64,000 nt of DNA. It comes from Alphaproteobacteria bacterium (lineage in GTDB: Bacteria; Pseudomonadota; Alphaproteobacteria; SP197). This document shows, piece after piece, positions 5,841-53,764 of this stretch. Position 1 is the first letter of the stretch, and every line of letters starts with the position of its first letter. Under the pieces are notes generated by a model. It searched no databases. It was not told where the DNA came from and saw nothing but the letters and a program-made list of their open reading frames with translations. Both the position numbers and the translations under genes were made by a program. The stretch covers positions 325,491 to 389,490 of the forward strand of contig CBDCEA010000005.1 in the NCBI GenBank assembly GCA_965215635.1, read 5' to 3'.

Positions 5841-5850
5841 TTTCGTACCC

Positions 5851-11459: not shown

Positions 11460-12089
11460 CTATCCGATGATCTGGATGCGTATCGGGGTCGGCCTTCCTC
11501 CCGCTGCGGGATTGTTGACCTGCGGACAATTGGAGATGACGGCCAGCGCATCACACTCGGCCCTGAGGTCGACATGGTCTCCGGGCATCGAGGGACCATC
11601 CACGAACGTGCGTTCCGCAAGGAGGCCGCCTTCATAGACAGGCACCCGGCAGAAGAAGTTTACGTTGGGAACGATGTCGGTCCAGCCCAGACCGTGCCTT
11701 GCCAGCGCGACAAGGAAATTCTCCCGGCATCCCGGCACGCCCTCGATACCATAGAGCATCGCGTTGCTGGGCTCGCTGCAGCAGCCGGCGATGGTGTCGT
11801 GATGGCCGCAGGTATCGGCCACGAAGCTGAACAGGGGCCTTGCGCGGTCGGAATAGAGCGTGTGGCCCTCGGTAAGGTACAGGGTGCCGCTCTTCTTGAT
11901 GGTATTGGGGGCATGATAGCGTTCGGCAGGATCGGCGGCGTTGTAGCAGAGGAAGTCAACGCCCTGTTTTCCCTCGAGGTCGACAATGCGCAGCACCTGG
12001 CCCTGCTGAACAACAGCCGACCACGGAGCTCCCGGCGGCACGATCTCGTCACGCACCACGTTAGGGACATCGTCAGTGATCATAGGCAT
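11460..12089 (-). CDS. DUF1989 family protein (urea-carboxylase-associated family)
   Basis: Family resemblance across the length; start chosen at ATG after GGAGGG (12089); earlier in-frame Met codons lack an RBS. Confidence 0.65.
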   Translation of the reverse strand: MPMITDDVPNVVRDEIVPPGAPWSAVVQQGQVLRIVDLEGKQGVDFLCYNAADPAERYHAPNTIKKSGTLYLTEGHTLYSDRARPLFSFVADTCGHHDTIAGCCSEPSNAMLYGIEGVPGCRENFLVALARHGLGWTDIVPNVNFFCRVPVYEGGLLAERTFVDGPSMPGDHVDLRAECDALAVISNCPQVNNPAAGGRPTPIRIQIIG

Positions 12090-12336
12090 GCCCTCCATCT
12101 GGCATTCGCAACAATCGGATACGGGTAGCCCGTTCATGACATTCTATCCGTTGAACCTGACGCCACCCAATCCCGGACCCATGTTCTCGGGCGTGGGCCC
12201 TGCGCCGTGACCGATACGTCAAGCATACAAGCGGATGCATTGCCCTCTCCTTCGGTCCTGATCCGTTCCGGAGCGGATCAGGACCACCTTCTTGAACCCC
12301 TTCAAGGCGCTTGTGCCGGACCGTGGTATCTCCCGG

Positions 12337-17541: not shown

Positions 17542-19568
17542 CTGCGTTCCCCGATCAGGTTGCCGTGGTCATCCACCGTGATGTCGAAACCGGCCGGAAC
17601 CCATGTCGTGGTGTCGTACTGCTCGATCACGACAGGCCCCGAATAGACCCTTCCTCTTCCGAGATCCTCGCGGCGCCACACCGCCGCCTCGAAGACTTCG
17701 CCGTGTTCGTGGACGAGGCGCACGCCCCCGGGGGCCCCCTCCCGGGAACTGGAAACCGCACCGACCGGAGGTTTCGGCGTCACACCGACAATCTGGAGTC
17801 GCGCCTCCAGCATGCGCACGGGAGCCTCCGGGTCGTGGTAGCCGTAGATCCGCTGGTAGCGGTCGAGAAACCACATCTCGAGGTCGGCCGCGCCGAAGTC
17901 CCTGGTATCGGGGAACGGGACGTTCACCTCGTAGGACTGCCCGACATGGCAGAGATCCGCCGAACGCAGGACATGGACCTCCTTCATTCCGACGTCCTGT
18001 TCGGCAAGCCAGTCGCCGGCCTCCGACTCGAGGCGGCCGAAGATGTCGCGAAGTTCGTCGTCGGGGCAGGCGTCGAGATCGCGCCAGACGCTCTGCACGA
18101 AATCGGCGCGAAAGTCTGCAACCAGGCACCCCAGAGCACACAGGGTCCCGGGGGACGGCGGCACGATGATGCGCCGCATGTCGAGTTCCCGCGCGAGCAT
18201 GAAAGCCTGGGTCGGACCGGCGGCACCATAGGCGAGCAAGGAGAATCCTGCCGTGTCGATGCCCCGCCTCGCCATCTGCGGCATCAGCTGCGAATAGATG
18301 TTCGCTGTCGTGACCTGAAGGATGGCATCGGCGGTCTCGCTTCGCGTGCGGCCCAGGACCGGCGCCAGCGTATCGATGGCGGCATGGGCCCTTGCGCCTT
18401 CCAGAACCATCGTGCCATCGAGAAAACTCTTCGCAGCGATGATCCCCGCCGTGAGGTAGGCGTCGGTGACGGTCGGCCGCGTGCCTCCTTTCCCGTAGCA
18501 GGCCGGACCCGGCGAGGCGCCCGCGCTTTCCGGTCCGACCTTGAGGACACCTTCCGCATCCGTCCAGGCGACCGAACCGCCGCCGGCGCCGACAGCCGAC
18601 ACATCGACGGCCGGCATGATGACGGGAATGTCCCCGATCGTGTTGTCCGTGGCATGACCGATCGACCCGTGAACGATCGACACATCGACGCTGGTGCCGC
18701 CCATGTCGAGCGTGACGACATCCTCGTCACCGATCGCCGCTGCAACGTGGTGGGCACCGATGACGCCGGACGCCGGGCCCGAGAGCAGGGTCTCGACCGG
18801 ACGCCGGGCTGCGGACGCCGCACTCATCACCCCACCGTTCGACTTCGTCGAGAAAACGCGGCAGGTCATGCCGAGATCGGCGGTCCGCTTCTCCAGGGTC
18901 GTGAAGTAGGTCTTCATGCGATCGCCCACATAGGCGTTGATGACGCAGATCAGAGAGCGTTCGTATTCGCGCTGCTGGGGCCACACCTGCGAAGACGTGG
19001 TGACGTAGAGTCCCGGAAAACTCTCGGCGATCCAGCGGCTGGCCAGCCATTCGTGCTGCGGATTCCGGTGGGCGTGGAGGAAGCACACCGCGACGGTTTC
19101 CACGCCCTCGTCGAGCAGGAAACGTACCTGGGCTTCCACATCGTCGCGCCGGACCGGATGCCTGACCTCGCCGTTCGACAGCATCCTCTCGTCGACCGCA
19201 CGCACCAGCCGTCTGGGAACCAGCGGCACGGGTTTCGGCACAAAAAAATCGTTGGCCTTCGGCAGGCGCAGCCGGCGCAATTCAAGGGTATCGGTGAACC
19301 CCCGGGTCATCAGAACCCCGGTCCTTGCGCCGTTCCGTTCGAGAAGCGTGTTCACCGCAAGTGTCGTGCCATGCGCGAAGTAACGGATATCGGCCGGATC
19401 GACGCCGTGGCGACCGGCGATTTCCGCGATACCGTTGGCGACGGCAAGGGAGGGGTCTTCGGGAGTCGACGGGGTCTTCAGCGCGATCACCTCTCCCGAC
19501 TGCTCGTCCATGAGCTGGAAATCGGTGAAAGTCCCGCCGATATCGACGCCGAGACGGTAACGGGTCAC
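17538..19568 (-). CDS. hyuA: hydantoinase A / oxoprolinase subunit (HyuA family)
   Basis: N-terminal GVDIGGTFTD ATPase motif; probable GTG start at 19568 after AAGAGGGG (track ORF extends to 19634). Confidence 0.85.
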   Translation of the reverse strand: MTRYRLGVDIGGTFTDFQLMDEQSGEVIALKTPSTPEDPSLAVANGIAEIAGRHGVDPADIRYFAHGTTLAVNTLLERNGARTGVLMTRGFTDTLELRRLRLPKANDFFVPKPVPLVPRRLVRAVDERMLSNGEVRHPVRRDDVEAQVRFLLDEGVETVAVCFLHAHRNPQHEWLASRWIAESFPGLYVTTSSQVWPQQREYERSLICVINAYVGDRMKTYFTTLEKRTADLGMTCRVFSTKSNGGVMSAASAARRPVETLLSGPASGVIGAHHVAAAIGDEDVVTLDMGGTSVDVSIVHGSIGHATDNTIGDIPVIMPAVDVSAVGAGGGSVAWTDAEGVLKVGPESAGASPGPACYGKGGTRPTVTDAYLTAGIIAAKSFLDGTMVLEGARAHAAIDTLAPVLGRTRSETADAILQVTTANIYSQLMPQMARRGIDTAGFSLLAYGAAGPTQAFMLARELDMRRIIVPPSPGTLCALGCLVADFRADFVQSVWRDLDACPDDELRDIFGRLESEAGDWLAEQDVGMKEVHVLRSADLCHVGQSYEVNVPFPDTRDFGAADLEMWFLDRYQRIYGYHDPEAPVRMLEARLQIVGVTPKPPVGAVSSSREGAPGGVRLVHEHGEVFEAAVWRREDLGRGRVYSGPVVIEQYDTTTWVPAGFDITVDDHGNLIGERR

Positions 19569-19605
19569 GCCGTCCCACCCCTCTTGATGACGACCGGGAT
19601 GCGGT

Positions 19606-20619
19606 TCAGTCGCCGGCACCGGGCGCCGGCGCATCCTTCGACCGGCGGCCGAGCAGCTGGTAGAGTTCGTGCTCGCGGCGAACCAGTTCGTGGTCGTTGT
19701 TCTCCTGCCTGACGGCTTCGACCGACTTGCGGTTCTTCTGGTGTTCCGCCTTCAGCGCGCGGATGAAGCTGCCATCCCTGATATTGGCGATCATTTCGCG
19801 CATGCCCTCGAGGGTCTTCTCCTCGTCGAAGTACTTCTTCGACCAGACGAGATGGCCGAACTGGGCCGTGGAACTGGTCCGTTTCATGCGCTCGAATGCG
19901 CCGAGATCCCGTCCGTATTCGGCGAACTTGACGCTTTCTCCCGAAGCATAGAGATCAAGCATCACCGCTTCCGGCGAACAGCCGGCCTCGACAAGAGCGG
20001 TATACATGGCGCGCAAGGCGTAGAGGCCCGGCTGGTGTTCCTCGAAGAGATCGATCAGGACCTCTTCCTCGAAGCTCGACTCGAGTGCTCCCATCCTCGT
20101 CGTACCGATCGCCTTGGAGATCGCAAGACACCGTTCGAGCGCCTTCCCGCTGGCATTCTGCGCCACGGCGATCAGGCTCGGAAAACCCCGCCCCTCGAGA
20201 AACGTCGCTCTTACGCCTTCGCCGAGCATGCGGGGTGCCACCATCACGACATCGATGTCAGGGACGGGGACGATCTCCCGGTAGTGGATGTTGAAACCGT
20301 GCGCGAAACTCATGACATCGCCCGGCTTGAGGCTCTTCTTCACCTGGTTCTCGTAAACGTCAGGCTGGCTGTCGTCGGAGGTCAGCATCATCAGGACATC
20401 GGCCCTTGCAGCCGCATCCTCGATTGTGAGCAGGTCCCAGCCGTCCGCACGGGCAATGTCGGCATACTCGTCCTCGATGTTGCCGACGACCACATCGACG
20501 CCCATGTCCTTCATGTTGAGCGCCTGGCTGCGTCCCTGGTTACCGTAGCCGATGACCGCAACACTCCTGCCGTCAAGCAGTGAAAGGTCGGCATCATCAT
20601 CAAAGAAAAACCTGCTCAT
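19606..20619 (-). CDS. ilvC: ketol-acid reductoisomerase-like NAD(P)H oxidoreductase (class I KARI fold)
   Basis: Start MSRFFFDDDADLSLLDGRSVAVIGYGNQG at 20619 after GGAGA; about 337 aa; N-terminal Rossmann plus C-terminal knotted domain typical of class I KARI; physiological substrate uncertain. Confidence 0.7.
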   Translation of the reverse strand: MSRFFFDDDADLSLLDGRSVAVIGYGNQGRSQALNMKDMGVDVVVGNIEDEYADIARADGWDLLTIEDAAARADVLMMLTSDDSQPDVYENQVKKSLKPGDVMSFAHGFNIHYREIVPVPDIDVVMVAPRMLGEGVRATFLEGRGFPSLIAVAQNASGKALERCLAISKAIGTTRMGALESSFEEEVLIDLFEEHQPGLYALRAMYTALVEAGCSPEAVMLDLYASGESVKFAEYGRDLGAFERMKRTSSTAQFGHLVWSKKYFDEEKTLEGMREMIANIRDGSFIRALKAEHQKNRKSVEAVRQENNDHELVRREHELYQLLGRRSKDAPAPGAGD

Positions 20620-43282: not shown

Positions 43283-43767
43283 CAGGGCCTGCCCTCCATG
43301 GCGCAGACCCGGCGGTCCATTTCGCCCTCTTCCAGATCCTCGAGGCCCTTCCTCGAGAGCGCGTGAACATGAATGCGGTCCGGCAGCACCGACAGGGAGA
43401 CCGTTCCCGGCGTGAGCGTGATCGAATTGGCGAACGCGACAAGGCCCGCCGGTGTCTTCTGGTGCGCGGCCACCCAGCCGGAACCTGGATCAAGCTTCAT
43501 CCTCGGCGACAGGATGGTACGCGCAACGGTGACGTTGGCGATGCCGATCTGCCACACCAGCCACGGCAGATAGAGAACCAGACCCCCAGCCAGGTGGATC
43601 GGAAACCCCTCCTCGTCGATCGCTCCCATGCGATGGGCGATGACCACAACAAGCACGCAGGCGACCGCACCCGACGCAAGAAGGAAGGGATCCCAGTGCC
43701 CGGAAAGGACAAGCCATGTCCCCGCAAGCAAGACAAGAAGACCGATCACACGAACCAACGCACCCAC
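43282..43767 (-). CDS. mrpE: MrpE subunit (start approximate; GTG/TTG)
   Basis: C-terminal …ILSPRMKLDPGSGWVAAH…ITLTPGTVSL… matches MrpE …IVLSPKMNIQPG…ISLTPGTLS…; the long track ORF to 44343 is an N-terminal over-extension. Confidence 0.6.
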   Translation of the reverse strand: MGALVRVIGLLVLLAGTWLVLSGHWDPFLLASGAVACVLVVVIAHRMGAIDEEGFPIHLAGGLVLYLPWLVWQIGIANVTVARTILSPRMKLDPGSGWVAAHQKTPAGLVAFANSITLTPGTVSLSVLPDRIHVHALSRKGLEDLEEGEMDRRVCAMEGRP

Positions 43768-44130
43768 TCCATCACCACGAATCCAGCAACGCGCGGCACC
43801 GCAAACCACGCCTTTCTTCGAGTATGCCCAAGAGTGAACCGCGAACAAGATTGCCAGGATCAATAACGTCAGCACCGGGGATTCATTCACACAAATCCGC
43901 CACCGGATTGCCGGTCCCGACGCGATAGACGTGAACGGGAAGGAAGCAGCGGGCGTCGTAATGGGCGTGGAACTGCGACAGTTGCTGGGTAGCGCGCCTG
44001 ATCGCAGATATCGCCGATGCCGGGGGTGATAGCGGCAGAAGAGATCGACCAGCGCCGTCGTCGTGCGCGAGAGCCCGTTCTCCAGACGGCTGATGGTCGG
44101 TTGCGAACAGAGTGCGCGGCCAATTTTAAC

Positions 44131-44180
44131 AGGGGGTCGGGGCGCAGCGCGTCGCAGGGGGTCGGGGCGCAGCGCGTCGT
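44131..44180. repeat. perfect 25-bp tandem duplication (AGGGGGTCGGGGCGCAGCGCGTCGC x2) in the leader region upstream of the mrp-cox operon
   Basis: Read directly: 44131-44155 and 44156-44180 are identical. Confidence 0.9.
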
Positions 44181-44326
44181 CCTCGTATCGGCAGGCGATC
44201 GCGAACATGCAATAGCACAGCATCGCCGACAACGTATGGACCACTCCTCGCCGGGTCGCGCATGCAGCCCGCCAGGGTGTCGGCCAGACGCAAGCGGCGT
44301 CCTGTGTCAACGGGGCAGCCTCCTGT

Positions 44327-45190
44327 CTACAGTGGCGGTACATCCAATGTCACAGCGACCGGGCAATGGTCTGACAGAAATTCCTGCATGCTCTCGTTCT
44401 CGGCATATACAAGCTGCTCGAAGCTTCCCGGCACGACCCACTTGCCGACCTGAACGTCGTAGACGATGTGATCGATGTAGCGGGGGTATTTCCCAGACCA
44501 GCACTCCGAAGACCTGCCCTCGGTCGCTCGGGACAAGTCCAATCCATTGGGCTCTCCATCGTCGATCTCGGACCAGAAGTCGTCTCCGGGCTTGTCAAAG
44601 CGCCGGTTGAAGTCCCCGAGGACGATGAACGGGGTTCCGTTTGCCGCCCTTTGGTCGATCCACTGCTCCAGCACAGGCACCTGGGATGCCAGTTTCTCGC
44701 AATGGTTGCCTTCGATGGATGGTTCGGGAAGGGGTTTCTGGAAGCAGAAAGATTTCAGATGTACCACGAGGAATCGAATGGACGTCTTGCCTGCCATGAT
44801 CTCGATGTCGACACCGTGACGCAGGCGGCCTGTGGTGTTCATCTCCTCCAGGTCCGGATGGCGCCTTACCGGAACTGTTATCCTGACGGCGAAGGCGGTT
44901 CGTTGTTTGGCCTTCCCTCCTCGCTCTGAAACGAAGAATCTGTAGAGATCGGGATCGAATATTTTCGCCAGGGCCTGCTCGTTCTCGATTTCCTGAAGCG
45001 CCACAACGTCGGCATTCAGCAACGCCGCATATCCCTTCAAGCGAAGAAAATCTTCAGCGTTTCTTGGATTTCTTCCCTTGCCTGGAGAGGCCTCCAGATT
45101 CTCGATGTTCCAGGTTGCAATCTTGATCGTGTCGGCCGATGCAGGCAAAACGAGAAACAGTGCCACAACAAGAATAAGGAGCGCCTTCAT
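44327..45190 (-). CDS. secreted endonuclease/exonuclease/phosphatase (EEP) family protein
   Basis: Signal peptide MKALLILVVALFLVLPASA; EEP catalytic blocks (…IATWNIENL…, …ALQEIEN…, …LGDFN…, …SDHCPV…); noticeably lower GC and A/T-ending codons than neighbours. Confidence 0.8.
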   Translation of the reverse strand: MKALLILVVALFLVLPASADTIKIATWNIENLEASPGKGRNPRNAEDFLRLKGYAALLNADVVALQEIENEQALAKIFDPDLYRFFVSERGGKAKQRTAFAVRITVPVRRHPDLEEMNTTGRLRHGVDIEIMAGKTSIRFLVVHLKSFCFQKPLPEPSIEGNHCEKLASQVPVLEQWIDQRAANGTPFIVLGDFNRRFDKPGDDFWSEIDDGEPNGLDLSRATEGRSSECWSGKYPRYIDHIVYDVQVGKWVVPGSFEQLVYAENESMQEFLSDHCPVAVTLDVPPL

Positions 45191-46261
45191 CGCGTGTCCC
45201 CCGAGGGTCGTAGAGGCAACGTGCCCGCAGTGTGGCGGGGTGGAACGGGAACGTCGATCCTACTCGCCCGAGAAGGCGCAGCGGGAGATCGATCTGGACA
45301 TCGAGCTTCACGGGTAACCGGACGGATTGTACCAGGAATATTGTCACCAACCCGTGATGAAGTCCGTCGACAGACATCCCAGGCTGGCCTGCGCACCGCT
45401 TCCGGATTTTGCCGCGACGACATCATGGCCTGGTGCGAGGAAGAGGCAAATTTTGGCTCTGCGCCCGGTCCGGCAAAGAACAGCAGACTCGAAGGGGTTG
45501 AGCGTCGACGCGATGGCCCAGGAGGACCGCCGGGCGCTGGCTCGTGCGGGCTGTGTGGGACCCGCCATCTGATTGACAGGCTCAGGACCGACCCGACGCT
45601 GCTCCGACTGTGTGGCTGGTCGCGTGACGTGGAGGAGCGAGGCGAATTTTTCGCGGGTGTGTGCCTGGTTATGTTGGTCGCGTGTTCCGGAGAGGATACA
45701 CCGGGTGACGAGCCTATCGGACACGTGTCAAGGGGCCACGGGCTGCATCTCGATACGGCGGTTGAGGTGTACCGCCCTCCCATCGACATCCCTCCATGAG
45801 GTGCCGAGTCGCGGTCCCGCTGGCGACGATGACCGCCGGGCGTGTGACGAACCTCCGATATCCACCAGACAAACGAACGCCTTGACCATGTCCCTCAACC
45901 TGCGCCGGGACAAGGAAGCTCAAGGAGGAACTGGCCCGGGACCGTGCGGCGGGCATTCCAGGATCATCTGCCATCTACCTCCGACCAGTTGATACCTCTC
46001 GCCCTCGGCTCCGGCAGGCTGTTTCGACTTTTCGAAGAGAGTGGCATGGTGAGGCTTGCCCTGGCACCCGAAACATTCCCGGTTTGTTCACATTGGCTCG
46101 GGAGAGACACCGCAAGTTGACGGATTCCGGCTATCCTGCGCAGGGGTGTCCGTGATCAAATGCCTGATCCGGGCTCACCGGCCCCTGGGATCGGGAATAT
46201 TGCAAGAGCCTCTGTCGCCATTCATTCGTCGCACCGAACGACTGTCTTTGCGGAGCGTTGC

Positions 46262-46792
46262 ATGATCCTCGCCATCCCTGGACTGGGCCGAATGTGTTCC
46301 AAGACGTTCGCGCGGGCGGTGTTGTGGCTGATTCCTGCCGTCTTCCTGGTGACGCCGTTCCTTGCAGTGGGCAGTGACATCACCTTTGCCAGGGATACCC
46401 TGGAGATCGTCACACGGGACAACCGGACCCATACCTTCGAAGTAGACCTTGCCGTCACCCCCGCACAGCGTGCGCATGGCCTGATGTTCCGGCAGGACAT
46501 GGCCGAAGACGAAGGCATGCTCTTCCTGTTCGACCGGGAGGCGCCCCGCAGCTTCTGGATGAAGAACACCTACCTTGCGCTCGACATCATCTTTCTCGAT
46601 CAACACGGCACCATCGCGAGAATCGCACCCGATGCCATACCTTTCGACGAGACGACCATTCCATCGATCGTGCCGGCCGCCGCCGTCCTCGAGGTCCTTG
46701 CCGGCACCACACAAAGGCTGGGCCTTGGACCCGGGGACCGTGTGCTTCACAGGGCCTTCGACGCGCAACCGGAGGAGGAGACCGGACCATGA
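46262..46792 (+). CDS. DUF192 domain-containing protein, probably exported
   Basis: Hydrophobic N-terminus, family-typical …GLMFR…LFLFD…[16 protein letters not shown]… core; start uncertain (46160/46262/46292). Confidence 0.6.
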
Positions 46793-47484
46793 TGCTCACA
46801 CCTGCCGAGATCGATCGGCTGACCCTCTACACGGCAGCGGAACTCGCGCGCAAACGAAGAGCCCGCGGTCTGAAACTGAACCATCCCGAAGCCGTCGCGC
46901 TGATCTCGGATGAAATCATGGAAGCGGCACGCGACGGCCGAACGCTTGCGGAGGTCACCAGCTTCGGTTCGACAATTCTCACCACGGATGACGTGCTTGC
47001 GGGCGTGGCCGACATGATCGACCTCATCAATGTCGACGCCCAGTTCGACGACGGGCTGAAGACCGTGACTGTCTGGCAACCCGTGCGCCCCGGACGGGAG
47101 GTCCCCGAAACCGCGCGCAAGGCCGGCGAGATCCTTGTCGGCGACGGCGAGATCACACTCAATGCCGCAGGCGCCAAGACCGCCATCATTGTCCTCAATA
47201 CGGGAGACCGTCCCGTTCACGTGGCGAGCCACTTCCATTTCTTCGAGGCCAACAGGGAACTCGAGTTCGACCGTGAAGCCGCCTTCGGCATGCGTCTCGA
47301 TCTTCCCGCAGGTGCAAGCGCCAGATTCGATCCGGGTGAACATCGCGAGGTCGCGCTGACGGCCATCGCGGGAACCGGAGACATCTCGGGCCTCAATCGC
47401 CTGACCGAGGGCAACATCCACGACCCCCAAGTCAGAAACAGGGCTCTGGAACGGGCCCGCCAACGCGGGTTCAGGGGGGCCTGA
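46789..47484 (+). CDS. ureAB: urease gamma/beta fused subunit (UreAB)
   Basis: N-terminal [39 protein letters not shown] = UreA(gamma); C-terminal …[24 protein letters not shown]… = UreB(beta); single 231-aa ORF. Confidence 0.9.
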
Positions 47485-47486
47485 AC

Positions 47487-49196
47487 ATGGCAACGATGAC
47501 GCGGGAACGCTACGCGGCAATGTTCGGGCCCACGGCGGGCGATCGTATCCGTCTGGGCGATACGAGTCTCATCGCCATGATCGAACATGATCACGGGACC
47601 TATGGCGAGGAAGGCATCACGGGTGTCGGCAAGACCCTTCGCGCCGGAGCCGGCATGGATGGCGGGATTCGCCTCGACGAGGGTGCGCTCGAAATCGTCT
47701 TCTGCAATGTCGTGGTCATGTGCCCGGTCACGGGCATCTTCAAGTGTGACATCGGCGTTCGTGACGGTCGGATCAGCGCCATCGGCAAGGCCGGCAATCC
47801 TGCGGTCATGGCCGGCGTTTCGCCAAGTATGATCGTCGGCCCGGGAACCAAGCACGTCAACGGTCAGGGGATGATCGCCACGCCGGGAGGCATCGACGTC
47901 CACGCCCACTACCTGCAGCCTGCCGAAGTGTGGCACGCCCTCTCGTCGGGCCTCACCACCATGATCGGCGGCGGCTTCCCGGGATGCTGGGCCGTCGACA
48001 GCGGCGGCGACTGGGCCAATGCCCGCATGCTGAAGGCGACCGAGAGGTTCCCGATGAACTTCGGCCTCTTCAGCCGCGGCGGCGCCAGCAGGCCCGAGGC
48101 CATCGAGGAGCAGCTGGCTTCGGGTGTGATCGGCGTCAAGATCCATGAGGATATCGGTGCCATGCCCGCGGTGATCGACACCTGCCTGACCGTCGCTGAC
48201 CGGCTGGACTTCCAGGTCCAGCTTCACACCGATTCGATGAACGAATCGGGTTTCTACGAGACGACGATGGAAGCCATCGGCGACCGCACCATCCACATGT
48301 ACCACACGGAAGGTGCCGGCGGAGGACACGCACCGGACATCATAAGGTGCAACGGCGAACCCCATTGCCTTCCCTCTTCCACCTCGCCCACCAATCCCTT
48401 CACCCTCAATGCCCTGGGCGAACACATGGACATGATGATGCTGTGCCATACTCTCAGAGGCGATATCCCCGAGGATGTCGCCTTTGCGGAGAGTCGGCTG
48501 CGTCCGCAGTCCATGGCGGCCGAAGATGTCCTGCACGATCTCGGAGCGATTTCCATGGCTGGTTCGGATGCGCAGGGCATGGGGCGCGTGATGGACGTGA
48601 TCGCCGGAATGTGGCGCCTTGCATCGGCCATGAAGGACCGCCAGGGTCCGCTCGAAGGAGAGCCCTTCGGCAATGCGGACAATGCCCGGATCCTGCGCTA
48701 CCTCGCCAAGTATACGATCAATCCGGCCATCACTTTCGGCATTGCGCAGCATGTCGGGAGCCTGGAGGTCGGCAAGATTGCCGATATCGTGCTGTGGCGC
48801 CCCGGTTTCTTCGGGGTCAAGGCCCAGCAGGTGTTCAAGGCCGGTGTCGAGGTCTGGAGCCCGTTCGGAAATGCCGCGGCGTCGATCCCGATGAGCGAGC
48901 CCCTGGCCTTCCGTGAAAGCTGGCCATCCTGCGGCAGTGCTCCGGATCTCGTCTCTTTCGTGTTCGTCCACCCCCGTGCCATCGACGAAGGCCTGGACAG
49001 CAGGCTGAAACTCACCAAGCCGCTGTTGCCCGCAAGAGGAACGCGAGGTCTCGGCAAGGCGGACATGATCCGCAACGATGCCGTGCCGTCCATCACGGTC
49101 GACCCCCAGACATTCGAGGTCTTTGCGGACGGCACATTGCTGGATGTTCCTGCCGTGAGGCACGTCGCTCTTGGAAGGCGCTATTTCCTCATCTGA
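47487..49196 (+). CDS. ureC: urease alpha subunit
   Basis: MATMTRERYAAMFGPTAGDRIRLGDTSL… N-terminus, nickel-ligand His blocks (GGIDVHAHY…, …KIHEDIGA…, …HTDSMNE…, …MYHTEGAGGGHAPD…). Confidence 0.9.
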   Translation: MATMTRERYAAMFGPTAGDRIRLGDTSLIAMIEHDHGTYGEEGITGVGKTLRAGAGMDGGIRLDEGALEIVFCNVVVMCPVTGIFKCDIGVRDGRISAIGKAGNPAVMAGVSPSMIVGPGTKHVNGQGMIATPGGIDVHAHYLQPAEVWHALSSGLTTMIGGGFPGCWAVDSGGDWANARMLKATERFPMNFGLFSRGGASRPEAIEEQLASGVIGVKIHEDIGAMPAVIDTCLTVADRLDFQVQLHTDSMNESGFYETTMEAIGDRTIHMYHTEGAGGGHAPDIIRCNGEPHCLPSSTSPTNPFTLNALGEHMDMMMLCHTLRGDIPEDVAFAESRLRPQSMAAEDVLHDLGAISMAGSDAQGMGRVMDVIAGMWRLASAMKDRQGPLEGEPFGNADNARILRYLAKYTINPAITFGIAQHVGSLEVGKIADIVLWRPGFFGVKAQQVFKAGVEVWSPFGNAAASIPMSEPLAFRESWPSCGSAPDLVSFVFVHPRAIDEGLDSRLKLTKPLLPARGTRGLGKADMIRNDAVPSITVDPQTFEVFADGTLLDVPAVRHVALGRRYFLI

Positions 49197-49335: not shown

Positions 49336-50610
49336 TTGTCGTGGAACCGGACCATGATTGCAGCGCTGTTCGGTGTCTGGGCCCTGATCGTCGGCATCTG
49401 CGCCCTGATGGCAGGCAGTGCGCTTCAGGGTTCCCTGCTGGGTCTGCGTGCATCGGCCGCCGGTTTTCCGGATCTTGTGACCGGTTTCGTGATGTCGAGC
49501 TATTACTTCGGGTTCGTGTTCGGCGCACTGATGGCACCCCGTCTTGTCAGGCGTGTCGGCCATATACGGGTGTTCGCGGCACTCGCCTCGCTCGCTTCGA
49601 TATCAGCGCTGGTGCACGCCGTCTTCATCGATCCCTTCGTGTGGACCTTCCTGCGCGTTCTGACCGGTTTCTGCTATATCGGCCTCTACATCATCGCCGA
49701 AAGCTGGCTCAACGATCGTTCGACGAACCGGACACGCGGCCAGCTTCTCGCCGTCTACATGATCGCCATGAGCGGCTCAATGGCACTGGGCCCCCTGCTC
49801 CTCAATGTGGCGAATCCTTCCGGCTATGATCTCTTCATCATCGCCTCCGTTCTCGTCTCGCTTGCCGTGCTGCCGGTATCGCTCACAACCTACCCCGCAC
49901 CGCGTTTCGAGAATCCGGACCGCTTCAGCATCCGGGAACTGGTGAGGGCGTCGCCTCTGGGGGTCGCGGGGTGCTTCGCCAACGGTGCCACCTCCAGTGC
50001 ACTGGTATGGCTTGCATCGCTCTATGGATCGGGACTCGGCATGTCCATCGAGGATGTTTCCCTCTTCACCTCGGCGTCCATCGTCGGCGGCACGATCCTG
50101 ATCTGGCCGATAGGCCGGCTGAGCGACCGATTCGATCGCAGGAAAATCCTGACGATCATTGCCTTCACCGGTGGCTTGTGTTCCTTCGTGGCCGCACTCG
50201 TCGCCCGCCCCGATCCTGTGGTCCAGATCATTGCCGTTGCGGCGGTCGGTTGCTTCACTTCCCCCCTCTACTCGCTCTCGATAGCGCACACAAATGATCG
50301 CCTGAGGCCCGAACAGATGGTCGCGGCCTCAAGCGGGTTGCTGCTCGCGGCAGGTGTCGGCGGGATGCTCGGCCCTTCCGCGGCAGGCGCCATGATGCAG
50401 ATCGCCGGTCCCGCGGGGTACTTCTGGTTCCCGTCCATTGCCATGCTGCTCCTGGGCTTGTTCGCTCTCTACAGGATGACAAGGCGTGCACCGATTCCCA
50501 ACGAGGAGCAGCACGATTTCGTGACCCTGCTCAGGACATCCCAGGTTCTCACCGACACCGCCCTGCGCGACCATATGGACCGTGATCTCGGGCGCATGGC
50601 CAAGCGGTAG
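49336..50610 (+). CDS. MFS transporter
   Basis: 424-aa polytopic protein with MFS-like 6+6 TM organisation. Confidence 0.75.
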   Translation: MSWNRTMIAALFGVWALIVGICALMAGSALQGSLLGLRASAAGFPDLVTGFVMSSYYFGFVFGALMAPRLVRRVGHIRVFAALASLASISALVHAVFIDPFVWTFLRVLTGFCYIGLYIIAESWLNDRSTNRTRGQLLAVYMIAMSGSMALGPLLLNVANPSGYDLFIIASVLVSLAVLPVSLTTYPAPRFENPDRFSIRELVRASPLGVAGCFANGATSSALVWLASLYGSGLGMSIEDVSLFTSASIVGGTILIWPIGRLSDRFDRRKILTIIAFTGGLCSFVAALVARPDPVVQIIAVAAVGCFTSPLYSLSIAHTNDRLRPEQMVAASSGLLLAAGVGGMLGPSAAGAMMQIAGPAGYFWFPSIAMLLLGLFALYRMTRRAPIPNEEQHDFVTLLRTSQVLTDTALRDHMDRDLGRMAKR

Positions 50611-50838
50611 GGGCAGGTCAAGCGACGGCGCCTTCAGGGAAACAGGCTCTGCTCCGGCCGGCTGAAGACGAGCCTTCACGGGGCGTTGTTTCGGCTTCCC
50701 GGATGCCGTAATCCTTGCGATCGGAAGACCATCCGGAGTTACCGGATGAGCACGTGTCCCCGGCGACACAACGTGTGATGGTTCGGGTCGCGGCAGTCTT
50801 CCGCTGACCTTCCTTTCGTCTTCAGGGAACCCTCCTGG

Positions 50839-52935
50839 ATGCCTCTTTCGACCCTCTTGACGAATCTTCGGCGCGCACTCTATCCGGAAAGCATCTGTTA
50901 CATCGGCGGTTCCTTTCTCGAGCCCGCCATCAGGGCGACCAGGAGGCTGGGATTCGACGGGGATGTCCGGATCATCAATCCGAACAGGAACGAGATCGCG
51001 GGCGAGCCCTGCCTCGATTCCATCGACGATCTCGATGCCCCGCCCGATGTCGCTTTCCTGGCGGTCAACCGGGAGGCCACCAACGCGCTCATCCCGAAAC
51101 TCGACGCCATGGGTGCAGGCGGTGCCGTCTGCTACGCGGCAGGCTATGCAGAGGTTGGAGGCGAAGGACTGGCGTTTGAAAGCGAACTGAAGGAACGGGC
51201 GGGCGATCTCGCCGTCATCGGACCCAACTGCTACGGATTCAACAATTTTGCCACCGGTGCCCTTGCGATGGCCACACCGACCCTGGGAGAGAGGACGGCA
51301 AGGGGTTGTGCCTTCATCGGACAGAGCGGCAACATCTGCATCAGCATCGCCAACGGGCGGCGCGGAACCCCGCTCACGCACGTCATCTCGTGCGGCAACC
51401 AGGCCGTGCTTGATTTTGCCGATTACATCGAGGTGCTGGTCGACGATCCGGCGGTGACCTCGTTTGCCCTCTTCATGGAAACTCTCCCCGATGTTGCGGG
51501 GTTCAGCCGGGCGGCCGTACGGGCTCTCGAGGCCGGCAAGCCGATCATCGTCCTCAAGGCGGGTGTCTCCAGGATGGGGGCGAACATGGCCATGAGCCAC
51601 ACCGCGTCCCTTGCCGGCGATGACGGATTCTATCAGGCGCTCTTCGACAGGCTGAACATCATCCGCGTGGAAACGCCTGTCGATCTCGTCGAAACGGCAA
51701 AGGTGGTCACGGTGACGGGCATTCCCGAAGGGCGCCGCCTCGCCGTCTTCACGTGTTCGGGCGGTGATTCGGAATGTGTCGCCGATATCGTCGAACCACT
51801 GGGCATGGAATTCCCGGAACTCGACCAACGTCAGCGCGAGGACATCGCCGGGCACATGCAGGTCTTCACCACCATCGCCAATCCCCTCGACTACAACACT
51901 TCCAACTGGGGACGAAGGGACGTTCTGGAGAATATGTTTCCGGTCCTGCTTCGCGAAAGGGTCGATGCCGGACTGCTGGTGGTCGATACGATTTCCGATT
52001 CGGAACTGCCTCCCGGGATGAAGGGCGACGGGGCCGAAGCAGCCATGCTGGCGCTCAGGGACTCGGCGCACCAGCACGATGTTCCCTGTGTCATCACCTC
52101 CTCCCTGCCGGACAACATATCCCTCAAACTCCGCAGGGAGATGCACGACGCCGGCATCGCCATGACGCATGGCATTCGGGCCGGAACGCTTGCCCTTGCG
52201 AGGACCTGCCTCTATGGCGAAGCGCGACAGCGTCTGGCGGCCCGGAAATCTCCGGATGATCTTGCGTTAGCGCCTGTCGCGCCCATCCGCGGCAGCGTGC
52301 GGACCTGCGACGAACAGGAAAGCAAGCAATACCTCGCCAACGCGGGACTCCGGGTGCCGGAAGGCGAGGTCACCACGGCCGCAACCGCATCTGCAGCCGC
52401 CGAACGAATCGGCTTTCCCGTCGCGCTGAAGGTGCTGTCGGCCGATATCGCCCACAAGACCGAAGCCGGGGGCGTTGCCCTCGATCTCCACACTCCCGGA
52501 GACGTGGAACGTGCTGCACACGACATCGGGGCCCGGACAGGCGTCGATCGCCTTCTGGTCGAATCCATGGTGAAGGGCCATGTGGCGGAGATGATCGTCG
52601 GCATCACGCGTGACGACGCGTTCGGACCGGTGCTCGTCATCGGTGCCGGCGGCACGTTCGTCGAACTCTACAGGGATTCGGCGACCCTTTTGCTCCCGGT
52701 CGTCGAGGACGATGTCCGCAGCGCCGTCGACCGCCTCAAGGTCGCACGCCTTCTCGACGGCTACCGGGGGGCACCGCGGGGCGATCGCGAAGCCCTTGTC
52801 GAAGCCGTCATGGCGGTGGCGTCCCTTGCCGAAGTAGAGCGCGACCGGCTTGTGGAACTCGATATCAACCCGCTCCTTGTCATGCCCGAGGGCATGGGCG
52901 TGATCGCGGCCGACGGCCTTCTTAGAATGATCTGA
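50839..52935 (+). CDS. ADP-forming acyl-CoA synthetase (fused CoA-binding/succinyl-CoA-synthetase-like alpha + ATP-grasp beta domains; Acd family)
   Basis: N-terminal CoA-binding Rossmann domain (…VIGPNCYGFNN…), C-terminal ATP-grasp; 698 aa. Confidence 0.85.
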   Translation: MPLSTLLTNLRRALYPESICYIGGSFLEPAIRATRRLGFDGDVRIINPNRNEIAGEPCLDSIDDLDAPPDVAFLAVNREATNALIPKLDAMGAGGAVCYAAGYAEVGGEGLAFESELKERAGDLAVIGPNCYGFNNFATGALAMATPTLGERTARGCAFIGQSGNICISIANGRRGTPLTHVISCGNQAVLDFADYIEVLVDDPAVTSFALFMETLPDVAGFSRAAVRALEAGKPIIVLKAGVSRMGANMAMSHTASLAGDDGFYQALFDRLNIIRVETPVDLVETAKVVTVTGIPEGRRLAVFTCSGGDSECVADIVEPLGMEFPELDQRQREDIAGHMQVFTTIANPLDYNTSNWGRRDVLENMFPVLLRERVDAGLLVVDTISDSELPPGMKGDGAEAAMLALRDSAHQHDVPCVITSSLPDNISLKLRREMHDAGIAMTHGIRAGTLALARTCLYGEARQRLAARKSPDDLALAPVAPIRGSVRTCDEQESKQYLANAGLRVPEGEVTTAATASAAAERIGFPVALKVLSADIAHKTEAGGVALDLHTPGDVERAAHDIGARTGVDRLLVESMVKGHVAEMIVGITRDDAFGPVLVIGAGGTFVELYRDSATLLLPVVEDDVRSAVDRLKVARLLDGYRGAPRGDREALVEAVMAVASLAEVERDRLVELDINPLLVMPEGMGVIAADGLLRMI

Positions 52936-52948
52936 AGGGAAGTTTTTC

Positions 52949-53764
52949 ATGAGTGACGTGGTGCGTGTCGAACGCCGGGGCAAGGTTCTGGAGATCACCA
53001 TCGACAACCCGCCGGCCAACGCCATCAGCCGCAAGGTGACGGCAGGCCTCTCCGAAGCCTTCGTGAGGTTGCGAGACGATCCCGATCTTCTGGTCGGCAT
53101 CGTCACGGGCGCCGGAGAGAAGTTCTTTTCGCCCGGCTGGGACCTCAAGGAGGGCGCTGCGGAATTCGATGCCCTGGAAGCCGGCGAGATCACGCAGGAG
53201 GATCGTGAGCACGTGGTCGAAGGCGGTTTCGCCGGACTCACGGAAATGTGGGATCTCTACAAGCCCGTCATCGCCGCCATCAACGGTTACGCGGTCGGCG
53301 GCGGCTGGGAAATCGCACTCGCCAGCGACATCCAGTACGCGGTACCCCATGCCACCTTCTTCATTCCCGACGTTCACATGGGATTCATCGCCGATGCCGG
53401 TGCTCTTCAGATCCTGCCGCGGCGCCTGCCCCACTCGATCGCCATGGAAATCCTCCTGACTGGCCGGCGCATGGGCGCCGAGGAGGCCCTGAAATGGGGG
53501 CTCGTCAACGAGATCGTGGAACCCGACCGGCTGATGGCGCGCGCCCGCGAAATCGCGGACCATCTCGCCGAGGGCGGACCGCTGGCGCTTCAGGCCACCA
53601 AAGAGGCCGTCCGCCACACGATGCACATGTCGATACCTGACTGCTTCAGGGCGCTGCGTCCTGGTGGACTTCCCGTCTACACGCGTATGCTCTCCAGCGA
53701 GGATGCCAGGGAAGGCCCCCGTGCCTTCGCGGAGAAGCGCAAACCCCGGTTCAAGGGCCGATAG
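52949..53764 (+). CDS. enoyl-CoA hydratase/isomerase (crotonase) family protein
   Basis: …TGAGEKFFSPGWDLKE… oxyanion-hole region, …INGYAVGGGWEIALASD…. Confidence 0.85.
   Translation: MSDVVRVERRGKVLEITIDNPPANAISRKVTAGLSEAFVRLRDDPDLLVGIVTGAGEKFFSPGWDLKEGAAEFDALEAGEITQEDREHVVEGGFAGLTEMWDLYKPVIAAINGYAVGGGWEIALASDIQYAVPHATFFIPDVHMGFIADAGALQILPRRLPHSIAMEILLTGRRMGAEEALKWGLVNEIVEPDRLMARAREIADHLAEGGPLALQATKEAVRHTMHMSIPDCFRALRPGGLPVYTRMLSSEDAREGPRAFAEKRKPRFKGR

What the first reader, a model, noticed from the sequence alone, without database searches (positions are those of the whole stretch)
46789..49196. Two-gene urease (fused gamma/beta UreAB + UreC) with no ureD/E/F/G accessory genes within at least 15 kb either side
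A gamma-beta fusion (single 231-aa ORF) is the architecture known from Helicobacter and a minority of other bacteria, whereas most proteobacteria have separate ureA, ureB and ureC. The structural genes stand alone (flanked by DUF192 and an MFS transporter), whereas nickel-urease maturation normally needs ureDEFG close by. The same window holds other urea/amide-related genes (DUF1989 urea-carboxylase-associated family, amidase, hydantoinases) and a family-5 ABC importer of the peptide/nickel type 40 kb away. Possible explanations are accessory genes elsewhere, an acquired structural-only cassette, or non-canonical maturation.
Basis: partly seen in the sequence, partly recalled or inferred. Interest (0 to 1): 0.55.

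Follow-up and report, generated by a model that had tools for sequence, protein, structure and literature searches.

The report
Two-gene urease lacking helper genes
This is a real, intact urease made from two genes, and it belongs to a lineage of alphaproteobacterial ureases that has lost the usual nickel-loading helper genes from its operon, so it either borrows helpers encoded elsewhere or no longer needs them.

Summary
Window 46789-47484 encodes a 231-aa gamma/beta fusion and 47487-49196 a 569-aa urease alpha subunit. No ureD/E/F/G homologue lies anywhere in the 64-kb window.

The pair is not a one-off or an artefact. It belongs to a monophyletic "orphan" clade (NJ bootstrap 100/100) found here and at 28 related loci from alphaproteobacterial MAGs, in at least four genomic contexts. 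None has an accessory gene within about 10 kb. Its sister lineage (97/100) and every other surveyed member of the same short-loop urease clade carry ureE-ureF-ure(AB)-ureC-ureG-ureD.

All metal ligands and catalytic residues are invariant in 53 orphan sequences, and dN/dS is 0.06-0.12. Sixteen orphan-specific residues cluster around the active site (Fisher p = 7e-4).

ure(AB)C-only clusters are already described in Streptomyces, and Helicobacter mustelae UreA2B2 is an accessory-independent iron urease. I therefore file this as a new member of a known kind.

How the enzyme gets its metal is unresolved. I lean slightly towards accessory-independent assembly (0.42) over trans-maturation by ureDEFG elsewhere (0.38). 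The genomes of the close relatives (the window's own source is unidentified) could not be searched with these tools.

The parts
46262..46792 (+). DUF192 (COG1430) gene with a predicted signal peptide. The mechanical ORF starts at 46160; the likely start is the ATG at 46262. Its stop (46790-46792) overlaps the ureAB start codon. It is a conserved upstream neighbour only in the closest relatives, so it is context rather than a core part.
   Evidence: Pfam PF02643, E 2.3e-31. Sequence read. It lies about 50 bp upstream of ureAB in L001, L003-L010, L027 and L036, is separated from it in L002 and L011/L030, and is absent from other orphan contexts.
46771..46780 (+). GGAGGAGGAG ribosome-binding site, 8 nt upstream of the ureAB ATG.
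   Evidence: Read directly from the sequence.
46789..47484 (+). ure(AB): fused urease gamma (aa 1-99) and beta (aa 113-208) subunits with a 23-aa C-terminal tail, 231 aa in total.
   Evidence: Pfam and NCBIfam NF009671. Full-length alignment to H. pylori UreA, E 3.1e-59. dN/dS 0.11 against L011.
47080..47130 (+). Gamma-beta linker (aa 98-114, [17 protein letters not shown]). It is in frame, with no stop or frameshift.
   Evidence: The linker is present, variable in sequence but in frame, in all related loci.
47473..47479 (+). AGGGGGG ribosome-binding site for ureC, inside the end of ureAB. This indicates translational coupling: the ureAB stop is at 47482-47484 and the ureC ATG at 47487.
47487..49196 (+). 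ureC: urease alpha (catalytic) subunit, 569 aa. All metal ligands and catalytic residues are present: window H139, H141, K218, H220, D222, H247, H273, C320, H321, R337 and D361. These correspond to K. aerogenes H134, H136, K217, H219, D221, H246, H272, C319, H320, R336 and D360.
47967..48020 (+). Active-site loop GGGFPGCWAVDSGGDWAN (aa 161-178). It is four residues shorter than the canonical GGGTGPAxGTxATTCTPGPW loop. The PGCW and WAN motifs are diagnostic of the orphan clade.
49354..50610 (+). MFS transporter (418 aa from the ATG at 49354; the mechanical ORF starts at TTG 49336). It is a conserved downstream neighbour in the marine or host-associated part of the orphan clade only. Its substrate is unknown.
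   Evidence: Pfam MFS_1. Best NCBIfam match is PRK03633, 128.7 bits against a cut-off of 361. Adjacent or within 4.5 kb in L001-L006, L008-L014, L016, L027 and L030; none found near L015, L017, L018 or L034, and L007 ends too soon after ureC to tell; L048's called genes include no MFS.

Best explanation
The two genes encode a working urea amidohydrolase that uses the standard urease machinery: a binuclear metal centre bridged by a carbamylated lysine, and a His/Cys flap.

The enzyme belongs to an old alphaproteobacterial lineage that arose once from the ureEF(AB)CGD type of urease cluster by losing both accessory-gene flanks.

My preferred reading is that this lineage no longer depends on UreD/E/F/G. 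On this reading the metal centre is loaded spontaneously or by general cellular metal handling, possibly with a metal other than nickel. This is the logic of the Helicobacter mustelae iron urease UreA2B2.

**Shown:** gene content, intact catalytic residues, purifying selection, monophyly, clade-wide absence of accessory genes nearby, and remodelling of the residues around the active site.

**Inferred:** urea as the substrate, and the route and identity of metal loading.
For: 1. **Clean split by locus type.** The window and 28 distinct related loci carrying the PGCW loop have no UreD/E/F/G hit within about 10 kb. Every other short-loop locus has them. Gene maps showing E-F-(AB)-C-G-D are.
2. 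**At least four orphan contexts.** These are mrp|DUF192-ureAB-ureC-MFS; variable marine contexts; mutL-ureAB-ureC|His_Phos; and FMO-ABC_membrane_3-ureAB-ureC|GNAT. Only the ureAB-ureC pair is constant.
3. **Single origin.** NJ bootstrap gives orphans monophyletic 100/100, and orphans plus the accessory-linked sisters P0047/P0048 97/100.
4. **Functional genes.** All 6 metal ligands plus H219, D221, G277, C319, H320, R336 and M364 are invariant in 53 orphan sequences. dN/dS is 0.06-0.12 for unsaturated pairs.
5. **Remodelled active-site surroundings.** Sixteen residues are conserved in at least 90% of orphans and present in at most 5% of other ureases: Ka 117K, 118H, 139Q, 142E, 160-163 PGCW, 176A, 177N, 250M, 316M, 337L, 361A, 362E, 368M. 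Eleven lie within 6 residues of active-site residues, against 79 of 299 other conserved positions (Fisher p = 7e-4). Several replace residues that are near-invariant in accessory-linked ureases (S361, Q362, L250, I337, G160, P161).
6. **Some erosion of nickel-delivery positions.**
   - The tunnel acid Ka E334 (H. pylori D336, needed for activation per PMC10121161) is Gly in the Dongiaceae-like orphans. It is Glu in 76 of 79 accessory-linked short-loop sequences.
   - H. pylori UreA H97 is Trp, and E177 is Asp or Asn, in the marine orphans including the window.
   - The accessory-independent UreA2 has lost R62, H97 and E177.
7. **No cognate accessory genes detected on the same contigs.** Among the 120 closest UreG and UreF relatives of the sister lineage, none sits on an orphan-bearing chromosome or large contig.
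Against: - The genomes could not be searched, so a canonical ureDEFG set elsewhere is not excluded. All published genomes with ureEF(AB)CGD or ure(AB)C clusters also carry a canonical cluster (PMC2492869, PMC3293853).
- Most UreD-contact residues of the alpha chain remain invariant in orphans: D314, E328, V330, R336, R338 and the Gly-rich loop.
- In the window's own protein the interface is essentially compatible with docking. E334 is kept. E177D also occurs in the accessory-linked L019. Position 97 is Phe in the accessory-linked L019-L021.
- The erosion signals amount to only two or three evolutionary events.
- Proximity of the signature residues to the active site was judged along the sequence, not in 3D.
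- The enzyme is no closer to the iron urease (3qga_C, 566 bits) than to nickel ureases (1ejw_C, 586 bits).
Confidence: 0.42

Rival explanations
1. This is an ordinary nickel urease paralogue. Its apoprotein is carbamylated and loaded with nickel in trans by UreD/E/F/G encoded elsewhere in the genome, most likely beside a canonical ureDABCEFG-type cluster. The orphan pair would then be a second, differently regulated or kinetically distinct urease.
For: - It is the default for separated ure genes. All described genomes with ureEF(AB)CGD or ure(AB)C clusters also hold a canonical cluster: Bradyrhizobium BTAi1, P. syringae B728a and Streptomyces (PMC2492869; SCO1231-1236 together with SCO5525-5526 in PMC3293853).
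- All nickel ligands and catalytic residues are intact.
- Alpha-chain UreD-docking and tunnel residues are conserved in the window's protein: D314, D325, E328, V330, E334, R336, R338, D537 and the Gly-rich loop (contact list from PMC10121161).
- The beta-domain acidic contact is kept as Asp, unlike in the iron urease UreA2, which has Gly there.
- Canonical-loop ureC genes without nearby accessory genes also exist (L043, L044).
Against: - The clade-wide remodelling of otherwise near-invariant residues around the metal ligands coincides with the loss of the accessory flanks. A same-metal, same-chaperone enzyme does not predict this.
- One orphan subgroup has lost the tunnel acid E334.
- No cognate (sister-type) UreF or UreG was seen on the orphan-bearing chromosomes (weak test).
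- A canonical-type UreD would have to dock on a protein about 50% divergent. The gamma-domain contacts of that protein (Hp R62, H97) are not canonical-like.
Confidence: 0.38
2. This is a neofunctionalised urease-fold amidohydrolase. The shortened, rebuilt active-site loop and the smaller residues at Ka 222 (Trp to Ile or Leu) and Ka 321 (His to Thr or Ser) open the pocket for a substituted urea or small amide rather than urea. The neighbouring MFS transporter would supply or export the compound.
For: - The orphan-specific residues line the active site.
- The loop that carries the substrate-binding backbone carbonyl (Ka A167) is rebuilt.
- An MFS transporter of unknown specificity is a conserved neighbour in part of the clade.
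- The TIGR01792 score is only just above its cut-off (713 against 680).
Against: - The W222L and H321N changes and the short loop are shared with sister and other short-loop lineages that keep full urease accessory sets. One of these sits next to a Urt/Fmd-like ABC transporter.
- Every residue known to bind or activate urea is invariant: H219, D221, H320, R336, G277 and M364.
- No conserved partner enzyme points to another pathway.
- The MFS gene was not found near L015, L017, L018 or L034, and L048's called genes include none.
Confidence: 0.12
3. This is a non-functional remnant or an assembly artefact: a decaying operon fragment, or a false gamma/beta fusion created by a sequencing error.
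For: IS-type transposase fragments lie 1-3 kb upstream. The accessory genes are missing.
Against: - dN/dS is 0.06-0.12.
- The reading frames are intact in the window and 28 independent loci.
- NF009671 matches end to end.
- All catalytic residues are invariant.
- Ribosome-binding sites and translational coupling are in place.
Confidence: 0.03

Closest known systems
ureEF(AB)CGD-type urease clusters (Bradyrhizobium sp. BTAi1 Bbta_1962 and Bbta_4442; Pseudomonas syringae B728a Psyr_2197), described in PMC2492869
   Same: - Fused gamma/beta gene followed by ureC.
- The window's UreC nests inside the short-loop clade whose sampled members have exactly this gene order (L019, L031, L033, L035, L047).
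- Both share the shortened active-site loop, Phe at Ka 541 and the EHDH-type N-terminal motif.
   Different: - ureE and ureF upstream and ureG and ureD downstream are missing here and throughout the orphan subclade.
- Sixteen orphan-specific residues surround the active site.
- I did not compare sequences with the named Bradyrhizobium or Pseudomonas proteins. The link rests on gene order.
Streptomyces coelicolor / S. avermitilis ure(AB)C-only clusters (SCO5525-5526), PMC2492869 and PMC3293853
   Same: - A two-gene cluster of fused ure(AB) plus ureC with no adjacent accessory genes.
- In the published tree it groups with the ureEF(AB)CGD type.
   Different: - The host is an actinobacterium that also has a canonical ureABCFGD cluster. 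Whether the window's genome has one is unknown.
- The orphan clade here is alphaproteobacterial, with an accessory-linked alphaproteobacterial-type sister. The loss is therefore probably independent, but I did not test this against Streptomyces sequences.
- No functional data for the Streptomyces pair was found in the papers searched.
Helicobacter mustelae UreA2B2 iron urease (PDB 3qga). That it is iron-containing, oxygen-labile and accessory-independent is from my own knowledge of Carter et al. 2011 and Stoof et al. 2008, which I could not read here.
   Same: - A two-gene urease (fused gamma/beta plus alpha) standing apart from accessory genes.
- All canonical ligands are retained.
- It is the functional precedent for accessory-independent, nickel-free urease.
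   Different: - It is not a specific relative: 3qga_C scores 566 bits against 586 for K. aerogenes UreC.
- UreA2 has lost the UreD contacts R62, H97 and E177 (V, N, G). The window's protein keeps an acidic residue at 177 and an aromatic residue at 97.
- The Helicobacter host is known to carry a full nickel urease cluster as well.
Canonical nickel urease UreABC with UreDEFG (Klebsiella aerogenes, PDB 1ejw/1fwj; Sporosarcina pasteurii)
   Same: - About 50% identity over the full alpha chain.
- Identical metal ligands, carbamylated-lysine position, catalytic His/Asp/Arg and Cys-His flap.
   Different: - Gamma and beta are fused here.
- The GGGTGPAxGTxATTCTPG loop is replaced by a loop four residues shorter.
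- HEDWG becomes HEDIG, and CHH becomes CHT.
- There are no accessory genes in 64 kb.

Membership tests
Urease (EC 3.5.1.5; TIGR01792 UreC, NF009671 UreAB) | Gamma, beta and alpha urease domains are present and score above curated cut-offs. | tested here: met
   Pfam Urease_gamma, Urease_beta and Urease_alpha plus Amidohydro_1. NF009671 scores 321.8 against 243; TIGR01792 713.1 against 680; NF009686 752.4 against 354.
Urease (EC 3.5.1.5; TIGR01792 UreC, NF009671 UreAB) | Binuclear-centre ligands H134, H136, K217 (carbamylated), H246, H272 and D360, with catalytic H219, D221, H320, R336 and flap C319 (K. aerogenes numbering). | tested here: met
   All are present in the window's protein and invariant in 53 orphan-clade sequences. 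Carbamylation itself cannot be tested from sequence.
Urease (EC 3.5.1.5; TIGR01792 UreC, NF009671 UreAB) | Canonical active-site loop GGGTGPAxGTxATTCTPG (Ka 156-173). | tested here: not met
   It is replaced by GGGFPGCWAVDSGG, four residues shorter. The short loop is shared with accessory-linked ureEF(AB)CGD enzymes, so it does not by itself exclude urease function.
Urease (EC 3.5.1.5; TIGR01792 UreC, NF009671 UreAB) | Urea hydrolysis and nickel content. | not testable with these tools
   Needs an enzyme assay and metal analysis.
Nickel-urease gene cluster with accessory genes ureD/E/F/G | Accessory genes are in or near the structural-gene cluster. | tested here: not met
   There are no hits in 64 kb of the window or within about 10 kb at 28 related loci. 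Pfam scans of window genes agree.
Nickel-urease gene cluster with accessory genes ureD/E/F/G | Accessory genes are present somewhere in the same genome. | not testable with these tools
Indirect contig-length matching of UreG and UreF hits found none, but only the best 120 hits are visible.
Nickel-urease gene cluster with accessory genes ureD/E/F/G | UreD-docking and nickel-tunnel residues on the urease (PMC10121161, Table S1) are conserved. | tested here: inconclusive
   Alpha-chain contacts are kept. E334 is Gly in one orphan subgroup. Hp H97 is Trp and E177 is Asp or Asn in the window's subgroup. R62 is not kept in any short-loop urease.
ureEF(AB)CGD-type urease (PMC2492869) | Fused ure(AB), and phylogenetic placement within the clade. 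| tested here: met
   The fusion is shown. The short-loop clade has bootstrap 100/100, and orphans plus the accessory-linked sister 97/100.
ureEF(AB)CGD-type urease (PMC2492869) | ureE-ureF upstream and ureG-ureD downstream. | tested here: not met
   DUF192 lies upstream and an MFS gene downstream. Compare L031, L033, L035 and L047.
ure(AB)C-only urease cluster (Streptomyces type) | A two-gene cluster of fused ure(AB) plus ureC without adjacent accessory genes. | tested here: met
ure(AB)C-only urease cluster (Streptomyces type) | Common descent with the Streptomyces pair. | not tested
The nearest hits are all alphaproteobacterial MAGs.
Iron urease UreA2B2 (Helicobacter) | Specific sequence relationship to UreA2/UreB2. 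| tested here: not met
   3qga_C scores 566 bits against 586 for K. aerogenes UreC. 3qga_A scores 178.6 bits against 203.5 for H. pylori UreA.
Iron urease UreA2B2 (Helicobacter) | Activity independent of UreDEFG and nickel; iron in the active site. | not testable with these tools
   Needs expression, activity and metal analysis.

The most novel reading that the evidence does not exclude
The orphan ure(AB)C clade may be a second, independently evolved family of chaperone-independent and possibly nickel-free ureases. Its members are spread through marine, invertebrate-associated and soil alphaproteobacteria. The rebuilt shell around the metal ligands (PGCW loop, Q139/E142, M250, M316, L337, A361/E362, M368) would let the centre assemble without UreDEFG. 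Urea use in these bacteria would then be uncoupled from nickel supply.
Probability: 0.4. Interest if true: 0.7.

Novelty: new member of a known kind. Interest (0 to 1): 0.45.

Why it matters
Urease is the textbook case of an enzyme that needs dedicated chaperones to receive a toxic metal. The only proven exception is the Helicobacter iron urease.

This analysis defines a clean natural experiment. A monophyletic urease lineage lost all four accessory genes from its operon in a single event. It then stayed under strong selection for a long time and fixed a specific set of changes around the metal site. Its sister lineage still has the full accessory set.

That gives 16 concrete residues to swap, and a ready pair of enzymes (orphan versus sister) to compare. 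With these one can ask what makes a urease chaperone-dependent and nickel-specific.

If the enzymes prove nickel-independent, urea-nitrogen budgets inferred from ureC surveys in nickel-poor marine settings would need rethinking. If instead the genomes carry ureDEFG elsewhere, the finding is an ordinary second urease and mainly an annotation note.

Tried and rejected
1. **Exact look-up of the window's UreC.** It is not on record, so the source genome was not identified. The closest relative is P0001 at 96% identity.
2. **50%-identity representative search.** Ureases are so conserved that the whole clade collapses into one or two representatives. This was of no use for a tree.
3. **Finding accessory genes on orphan-bearing chromosomes by contig length.** I matched the "longest contig" of UreG and UreF hits from the sister lineage.
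   - There were no true matches.
   - Two apparent matches (8753 bp and 14685 bp) were coincidences between different contigs.
   - The method does recover same-contig UreG for accessory-linked types (contigs of 1018080 and 35571 bp). Only 120 hits are visible, however, so absence is weak evidence.
4. **Rfam at gathering thresholds over the whole window.** No riboswitch or other RNA was found.
5. **Promoter and terminator scan of 45-51 kb.** Nothing exceeded the shuffled expectation.
6. **Sigma-54 pattern upstream of ureAB or DUF192 in 21 loci.** None was found. A GCAACAC motif is conserved only among the closest relatives.
7. **Conserved extra neighbours that might act as a metal transporter or chaperone.** Neighbours of the more distant orphans are SDRs, ATP-grasp enzymes, a PLP decarboxylase and a restriction methylase. 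None is shared across contexts.
8. **An orphan-specific His-rich motif.** The N-terminal EHDH motif is a trait of the whole short-loop clade, not of orphans.
9. **Y541F as a sign of lost UreD docking.** This was rejected. Phe is found in accessory-linked short-loop ureases and in half of the canonical ones.
10. **Literature searches** for accessory-less or nickel-independent ureases in alphaproteobacteria or sponge symbionts. Nothing specific turned up. The Carter et al. 2011 iron-urease paper is not held.
11. **Structure prediction was not run.** At 50% identity to solved ureases the fold is not in doubt, and the tool returns no coordinates for measuring distances.


Full report
**1. What is there**

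Window 46789-47484 (+) is a 231-aa ORF. It contains Pfam Urease_gamma (residues 1-99) and Urease_beta (113-208). It matches the NCBIfam model for bifunctional gamma/beta subunits end to end (NF009671, positions 1-230 of 231, 321.8 bits against a cut-off of 243). It also aligns over its whole length with H. pylori UreA (E 3.1e-59).

Two bases after its stop codon, behind an AGGGGGG ribosome-binding site, the ATG at 47487 opens a 569-aa ORF ending at 49196. This ORF contains Urease_alpha and Amidohydro_1. It passes TIGR01792 (713 bits against 680). It is about 50% identical to K. aerogenes UreC (E 1.2e-174).

A DUF192 gene ends in an ATGA overlap with the ureAB start. An MFS transporter gene follows ureC after about 155 nt.

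The gamma/beta fusion is not a sequencing artefact. The same in-frame fusion is present in all related loci.

**2. No accessory genes**

I took UreD, UreE, UreF and UreG sequences from related loci and verified them with Pfam. I searched them with phmmer against every stop-to-stop frame of at least 60 aa in the window and in all fetched loci. The window gives no hit.

Pfam scans of most window genes show no ure accessory gene, HypA/B, NiCoT or UreJ either. The window covers 46.8 kb upstream and 14.8 kb downstream of the pair.

**3. The pair belongs to a distinct lineage**

The 120 best database relatives of the alpha subunit (58-96% identity) all lack the universally conserved urease loop GGGTGPAxGTxATTCTPG. 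They have a loop four residues shorter.

Within this short-loop clade, the window groups with the sequences that share the signature GG[GS][FWY][PA]GCW..DSGG.WA, HED[LI]G and CH[TS]L. An NJ tree with 100 bootstraps gives:

| Grouping | Bootstrap support |
|---|---|
| Orphan group monophyletic | 100/100 |
| Orphans plus sisters P0047/P0048 | 97/100 |
| Whole short-loop clade | 100/100 |

Gene maps separate the groups cleanly.
- The sister P0048 (L033) carries ureE-ureF-ure(AB)-ureC-ureG-ureD, as do the more distant short-loop enzymes L019, L031, L035 and L047.
- The window and 28 distinct loci with the GCW loop have no accessory gene within about 10 kb.

The orphan loci fall into at least four contexts:
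- mrp antiporter | DUF192-ureAB-ureC-MFS-acyl-CoA synthetase-enoyl-CoA hydratase. This covers the window and about a dozen close relatives, several of them complete MAG chromosomes and one a sponge MAG.
- Variable marine contexts, usually with the MFS gene within 0.2-4.5 kb.
- mutL-ureAB-ureC | histidine phosphatase, in Dongiaceae- or Rhodospirillaceae-labelled MAGs.
- FMO-ABC_membrane_3-ureAB-ureC | acetyltransferase.

Only the two urease genes are constant. The simplest history is one loss of the EF and GD flanks at the base of the clade, for example by copying only the (AB)C segment.

**4. The enzyme is alive and looks catalytically complete**

The following residues are invariant in all 53 orphan sequences examined:
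- the six metal ligands: Ka H134, H136, K217, H246, H272, D360;
- H219, D221, G277, C319, H320, R336 and M364.

Pairwise dN/dS for pairs with unsaturated dS is 0.06-0.12 for both genes. A pseudogene or an artefact is therefore excluded.

**5. What changed when the accessory genes were lost**

Sixteen positions are conserved in at least 90% of orphans and carry a residue found in at most 5% of all other ureases sampled. In K. aerogenes numbering they are 117K, 118H, 139Q, 142E, 160-163 PGCW, 176A, 177N, 250M, 316M, 337L, 361A, 362E and 368M.

Eleven of the 16 lie within six residues of an active-site residue. Among the other orphan-conserved positions the figure is 79 of 299 (Fisher p = 7e-4, odds ratio 6.1).

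Several of these positions replace residues that are near-invariant in both canonical and accessory-linked short-loop ureases: G160, P161, L250, I337, S361 and Q362. The window's own protein has Q rather than E at 362.

This proximity was measured along the sequence, not in 3D, which is a limitation.

**6. Test of the nickel-delivery interface**

The cryo-EM study of urease with UreFD and UreD lists the contacts and the tunnel residues needed for activation (PMC10121161).

Alpha chain:
- Orphans keep D314, E328, V330, R336, R338, D537 and the Gly-rich switch loop. These residues also lie in the catalytic flap, so their conservation is not diagnostic.
- The tunnel acid E334 (H. pylori D336) is Gly in the Dongiaceae-like orphan subgroup. 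It is Glu in 76 of 79 accessory-linked short-loop sequences.

Gamma/beta chain:
- H. pylori H97 is His in five accessory-linked loci (Phe in three others). It is Trp in all marine orphans, including the window.
- E177 is Asp (Asn in two loci) in the marine orphans.
- The Dongiaceae-like orphans keep His and Glu at these positions.
- The accessory-independent iron urease UreA2 (3qga_A) has lost R62, H97 and E177.

So different orphan sublineages show different, limited erosion. That fits relaxed constraint on the interface, but it rests on two or three events. The window's own protein remains largely docking-compatible. I score this test as inconclusive.

**7. Are accessory genes elsewhere?**

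This is the crux, and I could not answer it.

As a substitute, I searched the UreG and UreF of the sister lineage. I then looked for hits whose longest contig matches the length of an orphan-bearing chromosome or large contig.
- No true match was found.
- Two apparent matches were coincidences.
- The approach does recover same-contig UreG for accessory-linked types.
- Only the 120 best hits are listed. The result therefore argues only weakly against relocated cognate accessory genes.
- It says nothing about a canonical ure cluster elsewhere.

**8. Comparison with what is known**

- PMC2492869 (2008) already describes a third urease cluster type, ureEF(AB)CGD, in Bradyrhizobium BTAi1 and P. syringae B728a.
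- The same paper notes that Streptomyces coelicolor and S. avermitilis have clusters consisting only of ure(AB)C.
- S. coelicolor also has a canonical cluster, SCO1231-1236 (PMC3293853).
- Helicobacter mustelae UreA2B2 is an iron urease that works without accessory proteins. That statement is from my own knowledge; the structure 3qga is among the matches.

The architecture is therefore a known kind.

What is new is the following:
- an alphaproteobacterial orphan clade with a single origin;
- a clean contrast with an accessory-linked sister;
- a defined residue signature.

The window's enzyme is no closer to the iron urease than to nickel ureases (566 against 586 bits). Any functional similarity to UreA2B2 would be convergent.

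**9. How it most likely works**

Shown:
- a complete urease catalytic apparatus encoded by two translationally coupled genes;
- purifying selection;
- clade-wide absence of accessory genes in cis;
- remodelling around the metal site.

Inferred:
- that it hydrolyses urea;
- how the metal centre is assembled.

| Explanation | Probability |
|---|---|
| Accessory-independent assembly, possibly with another metal | 0.42 |
| Plain nickel urease matured in trans by ureDEFG elsewhere | 0.38 |
| Shift to a urea analogue as substrate | 0.12 |
| Non-functional remnant or artefact | 0.03 |

The lean towards independence rests on two things. First, the loss of the accessory flanks coincides with fixation of new residues at otherwise near-invariant second-shell positions. 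Second, there is patchy erosion of nickel-delivery residues.

The lean is slight, for two reasons. Every published genome with this type of cluster also has a canonical cluster. And the window's own docking surface is mostly intact.

**10.

- The family-5 ABC importer (1120-6792) is closest to nickel-type Opp/Nik models but far below their cut-offs: 141 bits against 600, 236 against 350 and 208 against 300.
- It is followed directly by an amidase.
- DUF1989 (11460-12137) scores below the UAAP2 cut-off.
- Hydantoinase A/B genes lie at 15526-19634.
- These genes lie 27-45 kb from the urease, beyond the ±10 kb flanks fetched for the relatives, so synteny could not be checked. I treat them as unrelated.

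**Verdict**

This is a new member of a known kind, the ure(AB)C-only ureases. It carries a testable and moderately interesting possibility of chaperone-independent maturation.

Noticed in passing
window 43760-46160: An insertion of about 2.4 kb lies between mrpE and DUF192; close relatives such as L001 have only a ~0.6-kb spacer there. It holds an Exo_endo_phos family gene (44327-45190, minus strand). The gene is flanked by fragments of an IS1380-type DDE_Tnp_1_4 transposase (about 44.05-44.25 kb and 45.34-45.5 kb) and roughly 1 kb without a convincing ORF.
   Followed up: partly
window 24932-33710: An apparently mobile region. It contains an IS66-family transposase (24932-26158), a Fic/DOC protein with an HTH domain (32433-33710), a phosphoribosyltransferase-domain gene (30862-31491) and several stretches without clear genes (about 26-30 kb).
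   Followed up: no
window 1120-8287: A family-5 ABC importer whose best NCBIfam matches are nickel-type (Opp5A_nikA, Opp2B, Opp2C, NikE). All are well below cut-off. An amidase gene (6713-8287) follows directly, so the substrate could be a metal, a metallophore or an amide/peptide.
   Followed up: partly
window 11460-12137 and 15526-19634: A stand-alone DUF1989 gene (UAAP2-like, 233.8 bits against a cut-off of 284.7) has no urea carboxylase next to it. A hydantoinase B/A (oxoprolinase or acetone-carboxylase-like) pair sits a few kb away among SDR and class II aldolase genes.
   Followed up: no
L035 5627-7570 and L047 13426-14244: In two unrelated ureEF(AB)CGD loci, a CbbQ/MoxR-type AAA+ gene directly follows ureD. 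In L035 a VWA-domain gene comes next. This resembles the NorQ/NorD or CbbQ/CbbO type of metalloenzyme activase, and may be an extra maturation factor for this urease type.
   Followed up: no
L047 1487-7553: An ABC transporter with a Peripla_BP_6 binding protein (Urt/Fmd-like), plus a CN_hydrolase (formamidase or aliphatic amidase family), lies immediately upstream of a ureEF(AB)CGD cluster. This supports a urea or short-amide role for the short-loop urease clade.
   Followed up: no
L043 and L044 (metagenome contigs Ga0214480_101357 and Ga0214477_100002): These carry a ureC with the canonical long loop (49% identity to the window's) but no UreD/E/F/G hit within the fetched flanks. Accessory-less arrangements therefore also occur outside the orphan clade.
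   Followed up: no
L001, L003-L011, L027 and L036: the 20-40 nt upstream of ureAB: A conserved CGCAACAC (or TTGCAACAC) motif sits just upstream of the ribosome-binding site in the DUF192-ureAB spacer of the closest relatives. It is absent from the window, where DUF192 overlaps ureAB. More distant orphans instead show a TAnAnT -10-like box 25-35 nt upstream of the start.
   Followed up: partly
window 49354-53764: Downstream of ureC, three genes are syntenic with the urease pair in the closest relatives: the MFS transporter, an ADP-forming acyl-CoA synthetase (50839-52935) and a CaiD-like enoyl-CoA hydratase (52949-53764). They may form one transcription unit. No terminator-like site occurs before 50672.
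   Followed up: partly
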